DNA of 64,000 nt from positions 1,989 to 65,988 of the forward strand of contig JANXZG010000048.1 in the NCBI GenBank assembly GCA_025355645.1, in the 5' to 3' direction. This document shows, piece by piece, positions 39,578 through 44,314 of the stretch. A program made the position numbers and the translations under genes. Under the pieces are notes generated by a model, which saw nothing but the letters and a program-made list of their open reading frames with translations, was not told where the DNA came from and did no database searches. The DNA is from Gammaproteobacteria bacterium (GTDB lineage: Bacteria > Pseudomonadota > Gammaproteobacteria > Steroidobacterales > Steroidobacteraceae). Position 1 is the stretch's first letter. Each line of letters begins with the position of its first letter.

Positions 39578-40744
39578 TCAGGCCTTGGGCAGCGTGACTC
39601 CCAGCTGTCCCTGATATTTGCCGCCGCGATCCTTATAAGAGGTCTCGCAGACCTCGTCCGATTCGAAAAACAGCATCTGTGCGACGCCTTCATTCGCATA
39701 GATTCGCGCCGGCAGCGTCGTCGTGTTGGAAAATTCCAGCGTGACGTGCCCTTCCCACTCCGGTTCCAGCGGCGTTACGTTGACTATAATTCCGCAGTTC
39801 TTTACGAAGATGCCGGCCTGCAAAGCGAAGTTGCCGGCTTCGGGCACCGTAAGGCAATAAACATCATGATGGCCTGGCACCTCGCGCACTGCTGCGACCT
39901 TGTGATTGCGATACGCGGGCGCACTTCCAGCCGGTGGGTTATATCGGCGCTCCGAAACCCCATGGTGGACGTGCATCCCGGCAGCATCGTCTGAAATTTT
40001 ATGGTTTGTATTCCATTCACCAGCCAGGCGACGCGTGGGATATAAATCCCCGTCGTGCGGCTGATATACCGATTCGTACCCCTCGATTAGTTCCCGGTAT
40101 AACGGCATCAGAGCATCGCGCGGACGAAGCGTGTGCGCTGCCGACATGCACCCATCGCGCCTCATGAATAAGTGGTCGGAGGTTGCGTGGATGCGCTGGC
40201 CGTCGTCAAGCTCGATCTCCAATAGGGCGTCCCGTCCGATGAGCCGTGGCTGATCCAGCAAGCTAACAATTACGCGGCCGTTTTGACCGATGCTATAGCC
40301 CCAAAACGACTCACCGGAATCATGCCGCCGCGCCATTTGCTCGAGAGTCGGTGCGGTCCCATCGACCAAGGCGACGCGAGTGTCGCCACGGAAGCAACGT
40401 GCATAAGTTGATTTTCCGAGGCAAACCGTCAGCACACTGCGTGGAATGCGAAAGAATTCCACGGTCCTCGCAAGCGCGAACGAATTCGGCGGGATGATGC
40501 ACATCGGGCCCTTGAAATCGACGAATGACTTTTCATCGAAGTTCTTCGGATCGACGATCGTCGAATTGATGTTCGTGAAGATCTTGAACTCCTCGGCGCA
40601 CCTGACATCGTAGCCGTAGCTCGACGTGCCGTAGGAGACGATCTTGTGGCCGCCGGCCGTGCGGACCTGCGTCGGGGAAAATGGCTCGATCATGCGCTGC
40701 TCGTTGGCCATGCGACGGATCCAGCGGTCGCTCTTGATGCTCAT
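39578..40744 (-). CDS. dcd: dCTP deaminase interrupted by an in-frame intein (precursor 388 aa, predicted mature Dcd 188 aa)
   Basis: N-extein is residues 1-116 ([13 protein letters not shown]...CLGKSTYAR) and C-extein is residues 317-388 ([43 protein letters not shown]...[12 protein letters not shown]). Joined together they reproduce a full-length Pseudomonas/Xanthomonas-type Dcd. Confidence 0.93.
39797..40396 (-). mobile_element. Intein (200 aa, Cys1 ... Asn200, Cys+1) within dcd
   Basis: Block [14 protein letters not shown], block [11 protein letters not shown] (TxxH), block [27 protein letters not shown], followed by Cys+1. The boundary codons were checked on the sequence: tgc at 40396-40394, aac at 39799-39797, tgc at 39796-39794. 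Confidence 0.85.
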
Positions 40745-41844
40745 CAGGTGGATTCCACGGTGATCTTAGGAAACATCCGGCTGTAATCCTTGTTCAACGT
40801 TGCGAGCCGCGCGGCCGTGCGTCTGGCCATCGCAAAATACGCCCGCGCGCGCGCGCTCTTTGGGTCTGCGACGACGGTCGGCGTACCGCCGTCAGCCTCC
40901 TCGCGAATCCGGATGTCGAGCGGTAGCTGGCCGAGCAGTTGCACGCCGTACTGCTCCGCCATGCGCGCCCCGCCGCCGCTGCCGAAGACATGTTCGGCAT
41001 GCCCGCAATTCGTGCAGATGTGCACGCTCATGTTCTCAACGATGCCGAGTACCCTGACCTCAACCTTTTCGAACATCTTGAGGCCCCTGCGCGCATCCAG
41101 GAGCGCGATGTCCTGCGGCGTCGTGACGATCACGGCGCCACTGACCGGCACACGCTGGGACAGCGTCAGCTGAATATCGCCGGTGCCCGGCGGCATATCG
41201 ATGACCAGATAGTCAAGCTCGCCCCAGTCGGTGTCAGAGAGAAGCTGGGTTAGTGCCTGTGTGGCCATTGGCCCGCGCCACACCATCGGTTGTTCCTGAT
41301 CAACCAGAAACCCGATGGAATTGACGGCGACGCCATGAGCGCGCAGCGGCGTGATGCGTTTGCCGTCGATCGACGTTGGTTTCTTGCCGGTCAGTCCCAT
41401 CAGCAGCGGCTGGCTCGGTCCGTAGATATCTGCGTCGAGCAATCCGACCCTCGCACCCTGCGCCGCCCACGCCAAAGCGAGGTTGGCGGCGGTGGTCGAC
41501 TTGCCGACCCCGCCCTTGCCGGAAGCGACGGCCACGATGTTCTTTACGTTGTCGAGCGGCTTCAGTGCCCTTTGCACGGCATGCGCCGCTATTTCTGTGC
41601 GCAATATCACACTCAATACGACGTTATTGAGTGCCGGCGCAAGGTAGGCCTGTAGGGCCGGCAGCAGCTCCTCGTTATAATCCGAGCAAGGAAAACCGTA
41701 GGTCAGTTCCACGGTCAGGACACCCTCGCGCCGGGCAATGGCGCCGATGGCCCGGGCCTCGCCAAGCGTCTGGCCAAGGTAGGGATCGTGGTAGTCACTC
41801 AATCTTGCGCGGGCGATAGCCGGCGCATCGATAATGTTGCTCAT
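40744..41844 (-). CDS. apbC: Fe-S cluster carrier ATPase ApbC/Mrp
   Basis: Trimmed to [10 protein letters not shown]. Deviant Walker [19 protein letters not shown] and the CTNCGH cluster-ligand motif. The stop overlaps the dcd ATG by 1 nt. Confidence 0.93.
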
Positions 41845-41889
41845 GGTTACGCATATTGTAGCGCAGCAGACGGATGGGCGCGCACCGTG

Positions 41890-41898
41890 TGGCATAAT
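41890..41898 (+). promoter_or_regulatory. Extended -10-like element TGGCATAAT upstream of the kinase gene
   Basis: Matches TGnTATAAT at 8 of 9 positions. Lies 29 nt upstream of the ATG at 41927. The identical decamer TGGCATAATT recurs at 46569. Confidence 0.35.
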
Positions 41899-41926
41899 TA
41901 AGAGTCCATTTCGAGCAGGGCGCCGA

Positions 41927-44314
41927 ATGAGTTTTATTTCGAATTTCCGGGCAGATCGGCTGATCGCTGAAATTAAATCGGGCGGCAACCCGACGGGCCC
42001 GGTCGCGCAAAAAGCACTGACACGCCTGGCCGCGATCGGCCCAAGCGCGATCGCACCGATTGTCGATGCCCTGCAGAGCGCGGACAAGCACGAGATGATG
42101 GCTTACGTCGAAGTGCTCGCTAAGTTAGTGGACGCCAAGAGCGTGCCGCTTCTACTTACGATGCTGGCTCAGCATAAGGGCCGCGCGGCCGCGGGTATCT
42201 CCTGGGCGCTGTCCTCGAGCAATGGCTATCCACCGACCCTGCTTCTCGAAGCTCTCGGCCGGCCCGGCAGCCCTAAACCAGCCATCCTCGACATCATCCT
42301 GGCGCAAAAAGCCCGCTACAACGTGCGCGACCTGTTGAACAGCGCCTTCAATGCGGAGGCCAGCGAACGCATCGGCTTGTTCCGGATCATCGGCGAAGTC
42401 GCCGACGACTCCTCGATCGATGATTTGCTACTGCGCGTCGACACCCACGATCCAATCGCCCGAGTGCAGATCATCAACCTGCTGGCACGATTCAACACCC
42501 CGCGGGTCACCCAGGCACTGCAAAAGCAACTGGCCGACAAGAGCAAGTTTGTGCGCGCCGCGAGCCTGCTTGCGCTTGGCAAGATGGATGGCCCGTTCGA
42601 CATTAAAATGCTCTGCGGCATGCTGCGCGACCCCGAATTCGACGTGCAGAACAAGGTGGTTGACCTGGTCGTGAAGGTCAACGATCCGGAAACGGTCAAG
42701 TACCTCGTCGATGTGCTGAAGGACGAAAATGAATACGCCCGGCGCGCCGCTGTCGAGGTCCTGAACCATGTGGGTGATTCGAAATCGGTCAAGTACCTGC
42801 TCGAGGTCATCGCCGACAGCGACTGGTGGGTCAGGACCCGTGCGGCCGACGCGCTCGGCAAGATCGGCGGACCGCGCGTCGTCGAGGCGGTCCTTGAGCT
42901 GATCCGGGACGAGAACCAGGACGTGCGCCGCGCCGCGATCGAGATACTGAACCAGACCAAGGATGACCGCGCGGTCGCGCAGCTGATCGAAGCCACCAAG
43001 GATTCGGACTGGTGGGTCAGCGAGCGCGCGGTGGATGCGCTAGCGGAGATCGGCAGCGACAAAGCCGTGCCGCGCCTGAAAGCGATGCTCGGCACGAGCG
43101 AGGCGAAGTCCCTGCCCACCGTCATCCGCGCGCTCGGCAAGATCGGCAATTACGAACTGATCGACAACCTGCTGGTCATGCTGCAGCGGCCGGAAAGCGC
43201 CATTCGCGTAGAGGCGATCCAGGCGCTTGCCAAGATCACCGATGAGAGGCGTGCCGATACGGTGCGCATGCGCTTTCAGTCCATACCGAGCGCGAACGAC
43301 ACCGCGGTCAGTCTTGCAATCCGCAGCGCCAATGAAGCGATGGACAACCGCTTCTCGACACAGCAGATCGCCGCCAACAAGCTTGCGCAAAAGATGCAGG
43401 AGCCCTCCCATACACTGCTTGCCGACAGCGCCAATGTGGCGGAAGTCGTCAAGCAGCAGGAAGAGCAGGTCGCGAAGCTCGACATTGGCACGATGCAGCC
43501 GGGCGATATCCTCGAGGGTCGCTATAAGTTCATCGAGAAAATCGGCAAGGGCGCCTTCGGCACCGTGCTGCTGATGGAGGATACGATCGTCGATGAGCGC
43601 CTGATTCTGAAATTTTTGAACCCGAACGTCTCGACCGACGAGGAGATGATGAAGCGCTTCGTGCATGAATTGCGCTACAGCCGCAAGATTACGCACAAGA
43701 ACGTCATCCGCATCTATGACTTCCTGTACATTCGTGGCAACTACGCGATCTCGATGGAGTATTTCCCCTCGCATACGCTCGGTGCGGAGATCGTCAACGA
43801 GAAGCCGGTCGACATCAAGAAGGCGGTCCGCTTCGGCATGGACATCGCGACCGGTATGGCCGTCGCCCACCAGGTAGGGATCGTGCATCGCGACCTGAAG
43901 CCCGCGAACGTGCTGATCGACAACGGCGGCCTGCTGAAGATCGTGGACTTCGGCGTTGCGGCCGCACATACCCAGGGCGACACGCAGCTGACCAAGACCG
44001 GCTACGTCATTGGCTCGCCCAAATACATGGCGCCCGAGCAGATCCTTGGCAAGAAAGTCGACGAGCGGGCCGACATCTATAGCCTCGGAATCATCCTGTA
44101 TGAGCTTTTATGCGGCGTCCCCCCGTACCTGCGTGGCGATCATATGTCCGTCATGTACCAACACGTGCAGGGCAAGGCGCGACCGCCGATCGATCTCAAT
44201 AAGAACCTGCCGCAGGGCCTGAACGACCTGGTGGTCAAGTGCCTGTCCCTAGACAAGTCCAAGCGGGTCCAGACGATGGATGATCTGCGCCTGAAGCTCG
44301 AAGCGTTCCTTTAG
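41927..44314 (+). CDS. HEAT-repeat protein with a C-terminal Hanks-type Ser/Thr kinase domain (795 aa)
   Basis: Trimmed to MSFISNF. Repeated DSDWWVRxRAADALGKIG / DVRRAAIEIL HEAT (PBS-lyase type) units are followed by GKGAFGTVLL, LILKFL, HRDLKPANVLI, DFGVA and SPKYMAPEQ. Confidence 0.9.
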   Translation: MSFISNFRADRLIAEIKSGGNPTGPVAQKALTRLAAIGPSAIAPIVDALQSADKHEMMAYVEVLAKLVDAKSVPLLLTMLAQHKGRAAAGISWALSSSNGYPPTLLLEALGRPGSPKPAILDIILAQKARYNVRDLLNSAFNAEASERIGLFRIIGEVADDSSIDDLLLRVDTHDPIARVQIINLLARFNTPRVTQALQKQLADKSKFVRAASLLALGKMDGPFDIKMLCGMLRDPEFDVQNKVVDLVVKVNDPETVKYLVDVLKDENEYARRAAVEVLNHVGDSKSVKYLLEVIADSDWWVRTRAADALGKIGGPRVVEAVLELIRDENQDVRRAAIEILNQTKDDRAVAQLIEATKDSDWWVSERAVDALAEIGSDKAVPRLKAMLGTSEAKSLPTVIRALGKIGNYELIDNLLVMLQRPESAIRVEAIQALAKITDERRADTVRMRFQSIPSANDTAVSLAIRSANEAMDNRFSTQQIAANKLAQKMQEPSHTLLADSANVAEVVKQQEEQVAKLDIGTMQPGDILEGRYKFIEKIGKGAFGTVLLMEDTIVDERLILKFLNPNVSTDEEMMKRFVHELRYSRKITHKNVIRIYDFLYIRGNYAISMEYFPSHTLGAEIVNEKPVDIKKAVRFGMDIATGMAVAHQVGIVHRDLKPANVLIDNGGLLKIVDFGVAAAHTQGDTQLTKTGYVIGSPKYMAPEQILGKKVDERADIYSLGIILYELLCGVPPYLRGDHMSVMYQHVQGKARPPIDLNKNLPQGLNDLVVKCLSLDKSKRVQTMDDLRLKLEAFL
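42011..43243 (+). other. HEAT/PBS-lyase-like repeat region of the kinase protein
   Basis: About 8-10 helical repeats. Boundaries are approximate, taken from the translation. Confidence 0.6.
43520..44299 (+). other. Protein kinase catalytic domain
   Basis: All Hanks subdomain signatures are present: G-loop, catalytic Lys, HRDLKPxN, DFG, APE. Confidence 0.85.

What the first reader, a model, noticed from the sequence alone, without database searches (positions are those of the whole stretch)
39797..40396. 200-aa intein inserted in the active-site loop of dCTP deaminase
The dcd ORF is 388 aa instead of about 188. Residues 1-116 end in ..CLGKSTYAR and residues 317-388 resume with [24 protein letters not shown]. 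In intein-free Dcd of the Pseudomonas/Xanthomonas type, as I recall it, these form one contiguous conserved motif ([21 protein letters not shown]). The intervening 200 aa has the full Hint signature. It starts with Cys ([13 protein letters not shown], block A). It has TxxH (IHATSDHLF, block B). It ends with a block F/G region that aligns closely with the Ssp DnaB intein, as recalled ([22 protein letters not shown] against VFDLTVPGPHNFVANDIIVHN), followed by Cys+1. The insertion lies right after the Arg that corresponds to the phosphate-binding Arg of the GRSSLAR loop in E. coli Dcd. An unspliced protein should therefore be inactive, which is the classic location for an intein. By eye the insert is AT-richer than both exteins and the surrounding genome, which suggests foreign origin. 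Bacterial inteins are usually found in dnaB, dnaE, recA, gyrA/B and nrd genes. I do not recall a characterised dcd intein in a proteobacterium.
Basis: partly seen in the sequence, partly recalled or inferred. Interest (0 to 1): 0.85.

Follow-up and report, generated by a model that had tools for sequence, protein, structure and literature searches.

The report
Decayed mini-intein splitting dCTP deaminase
The dCTP deaminase gene in this window is interrupted by a genuine 200-residue self-splicing intein, but it belongs to an already described family of dCTP-deaminase inteins and has lost the DNA-cutting domain that once made it mobile.

Summary
The ORF at 39578..40744 (-) encodes a 388-aa dCTP deaminase precursor, and residues 117-316 (39797..40396) form an intein. 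Three curated intein HMMs pass their cut-offs. The joined exteins align without a gap to Burkholderia Dcd 4DHK. A confident AlphaFold model (pLDDT 91.6) matches only solved inteins and other Hint domains.

It is not a new kind of element. The cyanophage CL131 Dcd carries a homologous intein at the same YAR|C site, and that intein was shown to excise in E. coli in 2018. A 2017 classification of HNH endonucleases already lists a 'dCTP deaminase intein'. All 120 best database matches to the precursor are intein-bearing Dcd proteins.

The window copy is a deletion derivative of a 376-aa HNH homing-endonuclease intein. It lacks 176 residues, including the metal-binding half of the HNH motif, so it should splice but no longer home. 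Selection fits this reading: dN/dS is 0.02 in the exteins, 0.09 in the splicing domain and 0.40 in the remnant.

Only GC3 is lower.

Seen outside the window: dozens of different endonuclease deletions in relatives, and a second, LAGLIDADG intein site five residues upstream. Both sites are often occupied at once.

The parts
39578..40744 (-). dcd precursor ORF, 388 aa plus stop. It overlaps the stop codon of the upstream apbC/mrp gene by 1 nt.
   Evidence: ORF. DCD PF22769 and TIGR02274 (136.9 bits against a cut-off of 92.8), each in two stretches.
40397..40744 (-). N-extein, Dcd residues 1-116, ending ..CLGKSTYAR.
   Evidence: It aligns to 4DHK residues 3-119.
39797..40396 (-). Intein, 200 aa (precursor residues 117-316), running from Cys1 to Asn200.
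   Evidence: HMMs above their cut-offs. AlphaFold pLDDT 91.6. Foldseek finds only inteins and other Hint domains.
40358..40396 (-). Block [14 protein letters not shown], with the nucleophile Cys117 (intein Cys1).
   Evidence: Sequence. Cys117 is invariant. TIGR01445 match.
40166..40192 (-). Block [10 protein letters not shown], with the T-x-x-H motif (T188, H191). Position B:12 is Phe, not Trp.
   Evidence: T188 and H191 are invariant. Aligned to the Npu and Ssp DnaE block B.
39911..40000 (-). Remnant of the HNH endonuclease insert (intein residues 133-162). It keeps only a degraded first half of the motif ([16 protein letters not shown]). The 176-aa deletion scar lies between intein A156 and G157, at 39928|39929.
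   Evidence: Alignments to the 376-aa alleles. pLDDT 56-73. dN/dS 0.40 and 30% amino-acid identity to L002. GC3 0.54.
39821..39865 (-). Block [16 protein letters not shown]. Position F:4 is an invariant Cys (C297) where most inteins have Asp.
   Evidence: Aligned to Npu DnaE VYDIGVERDHNFAL. Invariant. Wider relatives have Asp in 70 and Cys in 39 of 115 aligned copies.
39794..39814 (-). Block G, GIFVKN|C: terminal Asn316 and the +1 Cys317. The penultimate residue is Lys, not His.
   Evidence: TIGR01443 match. Last four residues across 120 homologues are FV[KQHRS]N.
39578..39796 (-). C-extein, Dcd residues 317-388 ([17 protein letters not shown]...) plus stop.
40744..41844 (-). Upstream apbC/mrp-type P-loop NTPase, 366 aa from MSNIID. 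It forms an operon with dcd, and the arrangement is conserved in relatives.
   Evidence: Pfam ParA/NUBPL 340.7 bits. Same arrangement in L002, L003, L012-L014, L164 and L165.

Best explanation
The window encodes a dCTP deaminase made as a 388-aa precursor that carries a 200-aa class-1-type mini-intein between Arg116 and Cys317.

Inferred mechanism, following canonical intein chemistry:
1. The Hint domain folds.
2. Cys117 makes an N-S acyl shift at the Arg116-Cys117 bond.
3. The N-extein is passed to Cys317.
4. Asn316 cyclises and releases the intein.
5. An S-N shift restores the native [14 protein letters not shown] loop.
The products are a 188-aa active Dcd and a free 200-aa intein. Because the insert sits inside the nucleotide-binding loop, the unspliced protein should be inactive.

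The element descends from a 376-aa intein that carries an HNH (His-Me finger) homing endonuclease and a C-terminal DNA-binding-like module. One in-frame deletion of 176 residues removed the metal-binding helix of the HNH motif and everything downstream of it up to block F. The copy can therefore no longer home. It persists as an immobile passenger, because only a precise excision would leave dcd functional.
For: What is shown:
- Intein HMMs pass their curated cut-offs and the Dcd model is split in two.
- The joined exteins align without a gap to intein-free Dcd 4DHK and to the empty alleles L013-L015.
- All splice-site residues are present and invariant.
- The AlphaFold model has pLDDT 91.6 and pTM 0.86. 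The 50 Foldseek matches listed are all inteins or other Hint domains, with TM-scores of 0.76-0.85 to Ssp and Npu DnaE and Mtu RecA mini-inteins.
- The window copy is collinear with 376-aa alleles whose HNH motif, THRHH.DF.RRNN.P.N..R..AS.HIRLHN, is at least 90% conserved among 33 full-length copies. The window lacks reference positions 158-333. P0002 and L002 share the same breakpoints.
- The remnant has low confidence in the model (pLDDT 56-73).

What supports splicing competence indirectly:
- dN/dS between the window and L002 is 0.022 in the exteins, 0.094 in the splicing domain and 0.40 in the remnant.
- In 120 homologues every deletion falls inside reference positions 133-335 and none touches the splicing blocks.
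- The homologous intein at the same site in phage CL131 Dcd yielded a product of spliced size in E. coli (PMC6293099).
Against: Splicing of this particular protein has not been observed.

Two residues that are usually conserved in inteins are non-canonical here. The penultimate residue is Lys rather than His, and block F position 4 is Cys rather than Asp. Both features are shared by the CL131 intein, which does splice.

Synonymous divergence in the dN/dS comparisons is high (dS 0.6-1.5), and the remnant has only 30 codons, so the ratios are rough.

The first structure model, of the whole precursor, failed with pLDDT 38.
Confidence: 0.88

Rival explanations
1. The insert is a domesticated conditional switch rather than a mere relic. 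The invariant trio of Cys1, Cys at block F position 4 and Cys+1 would let splicing, and therefore Dcd activity and dUTP/dTTP supply, respond to redox state or to thiols.
For: Cys at F:4 is invariant in this Dcd lineage, whereas wider relatives mostly have Asp. The splicing domain stays under strong purifying selection long after the endonuclease was lost. Redox-controlled inteins are known elsewhere, for example the mycobacterial DnaB intein paper listed (PMC6195587). That precedent is cited from its title and abstract only.
Against: Purifying selection on the splicing domain is expected for any intein in a needed gene, because imprecise loss or failed splicing destroys the host protein. Close syntenic relatives do well with empty alleles (L013, L014). 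No experiment or structural distance measurement supports a disulfide.
Confidence: 0.08
2. The insert no longer splices. The gene would be a disrupted dcd, or a Dcd that tolerates a permanent 200-aa domain.
For: The penultimate His and the block F Asp are absent. No direct evidence of splicing exists for this protein.
Against: The exteins are under very strong constraint (dN/dS 0.022; 97-100% identical to L002 and P0002). This is not expected for a dead gene. The insertion splits the nucleotide-binding loop. All nucleophiles are retained in 120 of 120 homologues, and the deletions never enter the splicing blocks. The CL131 homologue has the same non-canonical residues and splices.
Confidence: 0.03
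3. The intein is still mobile, that is, an active homing element.
For: Full-length relatives with an intact HNH motif coexist with empty alleles in the same syntenic lineage. Homologous dcd inteins occur on viral contigs.
Against: In the window copy the second half of the HNH motif (..SEHIRLHN) and the TGSIRGAA...DRSVFRRFP module are deleted. What remains is diverging fast. No other intein-like or endonuclease ORF related to it was found in the window.
Confidence: 0.01

Closest known systems
dCTP deaminase intein of cyanophage vB_AphaS-CL131 (gp069; PMC6293099)
   Same: The host protein and the exact insertion site are the same (GKSTYAR|CF... ...FVKN|CGII). The two inteins are homologous over the whole splicing domain, with 34% identity over 97% of the window intein. 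They share Cys at F:4 and Lys as the penultimate residue. Excision of the CL131 intein in E. coli was reported.
   Different: The CL131 intein is about 351 aa and has an intact HNH_3 domain (PF13392, 38.7 bits). The window copy is 200 aa and has lost that domain. The host is a phage rather than a proteobacterial chromosome.
376-aa HNH homing-endonuclease inteins in Dcd of uncultured Steroidobacteraceae-like Pseudomonadota and Halochromatium roseum DSM 18859 (e.g. P0010/L003, P0066, L008, L009)
   Same: Same site and same gene neighbourhood (HEAT-kinase, mrp, dcd, DUF3108, purN, purM). The splicing domain is 81-89% identical.
   Different: These copies keep the HNH motif and the C-terminal DNA-binding-like module. 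The window copy carries a 176-aa deletion.
Class-1 mini-inteins of DnaE (Npu, Ssp) with solved structures (4KL5, 1ZD7, 2KEQ)
   Same: They are the best sequence and fold matches among solved structures (E = 4e-8 with the family profile; TM-score 0.78-0.85). Like the window intein they have Cys1 and Cys+1 and lack the penultimate His.
   Different: The host protein and the site differ. The DnaE inteins are naturally split. They have Asp at F:4 where the Dcd intein has Cys.
Class 3 inteins (WCT triplet; MP-Be DnaB; PMC2807308)
   Same: A Cys at block F position 4.
   Different: Class 3 inteins lack an N-terminal nucleophile and have Trp at B:12 and Thr at G:5. The window intein has Cys1, Phe at B:12 and Lys at G:5.

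Membership tests
Intein (Hint superfamily, class 1) | In-frame insertion in a conserved host protein whose flanks rejoin into a contiguous homologue | tested here: met
   The joined exteins align without a gap to 4DHK (E = 3e-109) and to the empty alleles L013-L015.
Intein (Hint superfamily, class 1) | Curated intein HMMs above their thresholds | tested here: met
   PF14890 42.2 against 35.8; TIGR01445 25.7 against 24.5; TIGR01443 21.3 against 15.6.
Intein (Hint superfamily, class 1) | N-terminal Cys/Ser nucleophile, block B T-x-x-H, C-terminal Asn, +1 Cys/Ser/Thr | tested here: met
   C117, T188/H191, N316 and C317 are present and invariant in the family alignments.
Intein (Hint superfamily, class 1) | Penultimate His (G:5) and block F Asp (F:4). 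These are common but not obligatory. | tested here: not met
   G:5 is Lys, and is K/Q/H/R/S across homologues. F:4 is an invariant Cys. DnaE inteins also lack the penultimate His. The CL131 homologue shares both features and splices.
Intein (Hint superfamily, class 1) | Hint (horseshoe beta) fold | tested here: met
   AlphaFold pLDDT 91.6 and pTM 0.86. The 50 Foldseek PDB matches listed are all inteins or other Hint domains, with target-normalised TM-scores up to 0.85.
Intein (Hint superfamily, class 1) | Autocatalytic protein splicing of this precursor | not testable with these tools
   The only support is by homology, from splicing of the CL131 intein at the same site (PMC6293099), and by selection.
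HNH (His-Me finger, PF13392) homing-endonuclease intein of dCTP deaminase | Homology and same insertion site as the described dCTP deaminase HNH inteins | tested here: met
   Alignment A1 with CL131 and the 376-aa alleles. Best phage hit of the intein alone is the CL131 dcd gene. The group is listed in PMC5714182.
HNH (His-Me finger, PF13392) homing-endonuclease intein of dCTP deaminase | Intact beta-beta-alpha-metal HNH motif | tested here: not met
   Only a degraded [16 protein letters not shown] remains. The ..SEHIRLHN half is deleted. There is no HNH hit in Pfam at E <= 1. The motif is intact in relatives.
Class 3 intein (WCT) | No N-terminal nucleophile; Trp at B:12, Cys at F:4, Thr at G:5 | tested here: not met
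   Cys1 is present, B:12 is Phe (F193 invariant) and G:5 is Lys. Only the Cys at F:4 matches.
dCTP deaminase (TIGR02274 equivalog) | The host protein scores above the equivalog cut-off and the spliced product is a full-length Dcd | tested here: met
   136.9 bits against a cut-off of 92.8. The 188-aa spliced sequence covers 4DHK residues 3-190.
Bacterial intein-like (BIL) domain | A Hint domain outside conserved sites of housekeeping proteins, usually without the combination of a C-terminal Asn and a +1 nucleophile | tested here: not met
   The insert sits in the conserved GKSTYAR|C loop and has both Asn316 and Cys317. BIL structures rank below true inteins in Foldseek.

The most novel reading that the evidence does not exclude
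The endonuclease-free intein may be kept not just because it cannot be removed cleanly, but because it works as a thiol- or redox-sensitive gate on Dcd maturation. The gate would use the lineage-specific invariant Cys at block F position 4 together with Cys1 and Cys+1, either as a disulfide trap or as an alternative branch nucleophile, a hybrid between the class 1 and class 3 mechanisms. dUTP/dTTP synthesis would then be tuned post-translationally.
Probability: 0.07. Interest if true: 0.6.

Novelty: new member of a known kind. Interest (0 to 1): 0.3.

Why it matters
For the window itself the result mainly corrects the annotation. The 388-aa product is an ordinary Dcd plus an immobile mini-intein, and intein-bearing Dcd proteins of this kind are abundant in public data.

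The wider value lies in the family. One conserved loop of one small enzyme shows every stage of the homing cycle within a single syntenic bacterial lineage:
- empty alleles;
- full HNH inteins;
- dozens of different endonuclease deletions;
- a second, LAGLIDADG intein five residues upstream;
- alleles with both sites occupied.

This is a compact natural data set for two questions: how homing endonucleases decay while splicing is preserved, and how two inteins separated by only five extein residues fold and splice. Small splicing-competent derivatives with Cys+1, which are expected to leave no scar, could also interest protein engineers.

Tried and rejected
- Whole-precursor AlphaFold model. 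The model built from 70 close homologues was unusable (pLDDT 38). I replaced it with an intein-only model built on a more diverse alignment.
- Exact look-up of the window protein. Its cluster has one unnamed NCBI member, and no contig with exactly this product is on record, so the source organism could not be named. The lineage is therefore inferred only from synteny with Steroidobacteraceae-labelled MAGs.
- AT-richness as evidence of foreign origin. Rejected for total GC; only GC3 is lower.
- Class 3 (WCT) intein. Considered because of the Cys at F:4, and rejected.
- Second intein or free-standing endonuclease in the window. A family HMM run against all six-frame ORFs found only the dcd copy.
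- Rfam and tRNA scans of the window. Nothing was found.
- Novikova et al. 2016 (PMC4760082). The main text does not mention dCTP deaminase explicitly.
- MacGregor et al. 2013, which PMC6293099 cites for proteobacterial and Chloroflexi dcd inteins. The paper is not held in the library, so I could not read it.
- Extein versus intein distance correlation. It is weak (Mantel r = 0.28, p = 0.001), because the exteins are too conserved. It does not separate vertical from horizontal inheritance.

Full report
**1. Observation**

The ORF listing finds one ORF at 39578..40744 on the minus strand. It is 388 aa long and starts MSIKSD. Residues 117-316 map exactly to the reported 39797..40396.

The Pfam DCD model and the NCBIfam dCTP deaminase equivalog TIGR02274 (136.9 bits against a cut-off of 92.8) each match in two stretches that flank the insert. 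Inside the insert three curated intein models pass their thresholds:
- PF14890 Intein_splicing, 42.2 bits against 35.8.
- TIGR01445, intein N-terminal region, 25.7 against 24.5.
- TIGR01443, intein C-terminal region, 21.3 against 15.6.

When residues 1-116 and 317-388 are joined, the 188-aa product aligns from end to end with intein-free Burkholderia thailandensis Dcd (4DHK, E = 3e-109). There is no gap at the junction, and [19 protein letters not shown] is contiguous in that protein. The same stretch corresponds to GKSSLGRLGLL in the M. tuberculosis enzyme. This is the conserved nucleotide-binding loop. So the observation and its coordinates are confirmed.

**2. What the insert is**

The element starts with Cys. 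It has the block B T-x-x-H motif (T188 and H191 of the precursor), ends in Asn316 and is followed by Cys317. All of these residues are invariant in alignments of 11 and 70 family members.

A first AlphaFold run on the whole precursor failed, with pLDDT 38. The intein alone, modelled with a more diverse alignment, gave pLDDT 91.6 and pTM 0.86. Only residues ~131-165 had low confidence.

Foldseek against the PDB listed 50 matches, all inteins or other Hint domains. The best were the Ssp and Npu DnaE, Ssp DnaB and Mtu RecA mini-inteins, with target-normalised TM-scores of 0.76-0.85. By sequence, too, the nearest solved proteins are DnaE inteins: E = 4e-5 for the single sequence and 4e-8 for a family profile.

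Two positions are non-canonical. The penultimate residue is Lys, and is K/Q/H/R/S across homologues. Block F position 4 is an invariant Cys where DnaE inteins have Asp. Among wider relatives this position is Asp in 70 and Cys in 39 of 115 aligned copies. The class 3 'WCT' signature is not met: Cys1 is present, B:12 is Phe and G:5 is not Thr (definition from PMC2807308).

**3. Origin: a decayed HNH homing intein**

All 120 best database matches to the precursor are Dcd proteins carrying an intein at this site. The intein lengths take 53 different values between 175 and 376 aa, and 31 copies are exactly 376 aa.

The 376-aa alleles carry an HNH motif, GTHRHHLDFDRRNNRPTNIVRMEASEHIRLHN, and a C-terminal TGSIRGAA..DRSVFRRFP module. 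Both are at least 90% conserved at their key positions among 33 full-length copies. Pfam HNH_3 is weak in these alleles (15.2 bits) but significant in the phage homologue (38.7 bits).

Against this reference the window copy lacks positions 158-333, which is 176 residues. It keeps only a degraded first half of the motif ([16 protein letters not shown]), fused to [11 protein letters not shown]. The breakpoints are shared with P0002, whose exteins are 100% identical to the window's, and with L002/P0003. The deletion therefore predates the divergence of these three.

Across the 120 homologues I count about 74 different deletion patterns. All lie inside reference positions 133-335, and none enters the splicing blocks.

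**4. Is it still a working intein?**

The indirect evidence is as follows.

| Region (window against L002) | dN/dS |
|---|---|
| Exteins | 0.022 |
| Splicing domain | 0.094 |
| HNH remnant (30 codons, 30% amino-acid identity) | 0.40 |

- dS is high (0.6-1.5), so these values are rough.
- The remnant is also the only low-confidence part of the model and has the lowest GC3, 0.54.
- A host gene under such strong constraint, split inside its nucleotide-binding loop, requires splicing.
- The intein of cyanophage vB_AphaS-CL131 Dcd sits at the identical site ([16 protein letters not shown] ... [15 protein letters not shown]). It is homologous over its whole length and shares the Cys at F:4 and the penultimate Lys. 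Its authors reported a product of spliced size after expression in E. coli (PMC6293099).

I therefore conclude that the window intein splices but cannot home.

**5. Distribution**

In one genome per species, 8 of the best 80 dcd loci carry the site-a intein. They include Casimicrobiaceae and Steroidobacteraceae MAGs and the cultured Halochromatium roseum DSM 18859, which has a 386-aa intein with an intact HNH motif.

The empty alleles L013 and L014 have exteins 91% identical to the window's and share its gene order: HEAT-repeat kinase, mrp, dcd, DUF3108, purN. L002 (mini) and L003 (full length) are the closest syntenic relatives, with Mrp 89-91% identical.

Viral contigs hold 177 relatives of the intein in many host genes. 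They include further dcd copies at the same site (L084, L085, L148). An exhaustive search of 1.84 billion representatives found 3010 relatives at E <= 1e-3. Their hosts include T4-type portal proteins and ThyX, and many carry HNH_3 domains.

**6. Comparison with what is known, and novelty**

dCTP deaminase inteins with HNH endonucleases are already in the literature:
- PMC5714182 lists a 'Deoxycytidine triphosphate deaminase intein' together with a GyrB intein in its HNH_3 group.
- PMC6293099 characterises the CL131 example and cites earlier reports in a proteobacterium and a Chloroflexi bacterium.
- JGI annotation already labels many relatives 'deoxycytidine triphosphate deaminase/intein/homing endonuclease'.

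The window element is therefore a new, degenerate member of a known kind. In the searched library I found no biochemical characterisation of a proteobacterial copy.

**7.

The insert is not AT-richer than the exteins. Its GC is 58.5%, against 56.4% for the exteins. The whole gene is below the window mean of 62.9%, and only GC3 is lower in the intein, 0.64 against 0.75. The closest solved relatives are DnaE inteins, not Ssp DnaB.

**8. Seen outside the window**

L012, a syntenic Gammaproteobacteria MAG, has an unrelated 410-aa LAGLIDADG intein inserted at GK|STYAR, five residues upstream. PF14528 scores 69.8 bits, and the intein ends ..NFVANDLIVHN.

P0125 and 111 others among its 120 best matches carry both inteins, separated only by the pentapeptide STYAR. 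Both inteins show length series. Two such loci, L164 and L165, have the same gene order as the window. A search for phrases such as 'neighboring inteins' and 'adjacent inteins' returned two papers. One is a study of neighbouring inteins in haloarchaeal MCM and the other concerns a phage methylase insertion element. Neither appears, from title and abstract, to describe this arrangement. The window allele has site b empty.

**9. Verdict**

It is a new member of a known kind and its interest is modest. The family-wide patterns, repeated endonuclease loss and near-adjacent double inteins, are the more interesting leads.

Noticed in passing
L012:3001-4797 (CAVSVK010000007.1, uncultured Gammaproteobacteria MAG). 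The corresponding window site is between K111 and S112 of dcd, about 40409-40414.: A second, unrelated intein site in Dcd. A 410-aa LAGLIDADG intein (PF14528, 69.8 bits; it ends ..NFVANDLIVHN|STYAR) is inserted at GK|STYAR, five residues upstream of the window's site. The window allele has this site empty.
   Followed up: partly
P0125, P0271-P0389; loci L164:3001-5373 and L165:3001-5925: 112 of the 120 best matches to P0125 are Dcd precursors of up to 976 aa with both inteins, separated only by the 5-residue extein STYAR. Both inteins show series of endonuclease deletions. The two loci fetched have the same gene order as the window. A phrase search of the paper library returned two papers, neither of which appears (from title and abstract) to describe this arrangement.
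   Followed up: partly
P0001-P0120 (alignment): Among 120 site-a Dcd inteins there are 53 different lengths (175-376 aa) and about 74 different deletion patterns. All are confined to the endonuclease insert (reference positions 133-335). This is an unusually rich record of repeated homing-endonuclease decay with the splicing domain preserved.
   Followed up: partly
window 39854-39856 (Cys297 of the precursor, block F position 4): An invariant Cys replaces the usual block F Asp in the Dcd intein lineage, alongside Cys1 and Cys+1. The penultimate His is also lost. The pattern does not fit the class 3 WCT signature, and its role is unexplained.
   Followed up: partly
P0122, P0128 and other hits: Relatives of this intein occur as 3-4 copies within single very large proteins, for example T4-type portal proteins of 1321 and 2039 aa, many with HNH_3 domains.
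   Followed up: no
window 40744 and 39577/39578: The dcd start codon overlaps the apbC/mrp stop codon by 1 nt, which suggests translational coupling. The dcd stop codon directly abuts the stop of the convergent DUF3108 gene. The ORF list over-extends mrp to 447 aa from a TTG; relatives indicate 366 aa starting at MSNIID (41844).
   Followed up: partly
window 41834-44314 (+): An 826-aa protein with five HEAT_2 repeats followed by a Ser/Thr protein kinase domain lies divergent from mrp-dcd. It is conserved in this position in all close syntenic relatives.
   Followed up: no
window 1-64000: No tRNA genes and no Rfam family at gathering threshold were found anywhere in the 64-kb window.
   Followed up: yes
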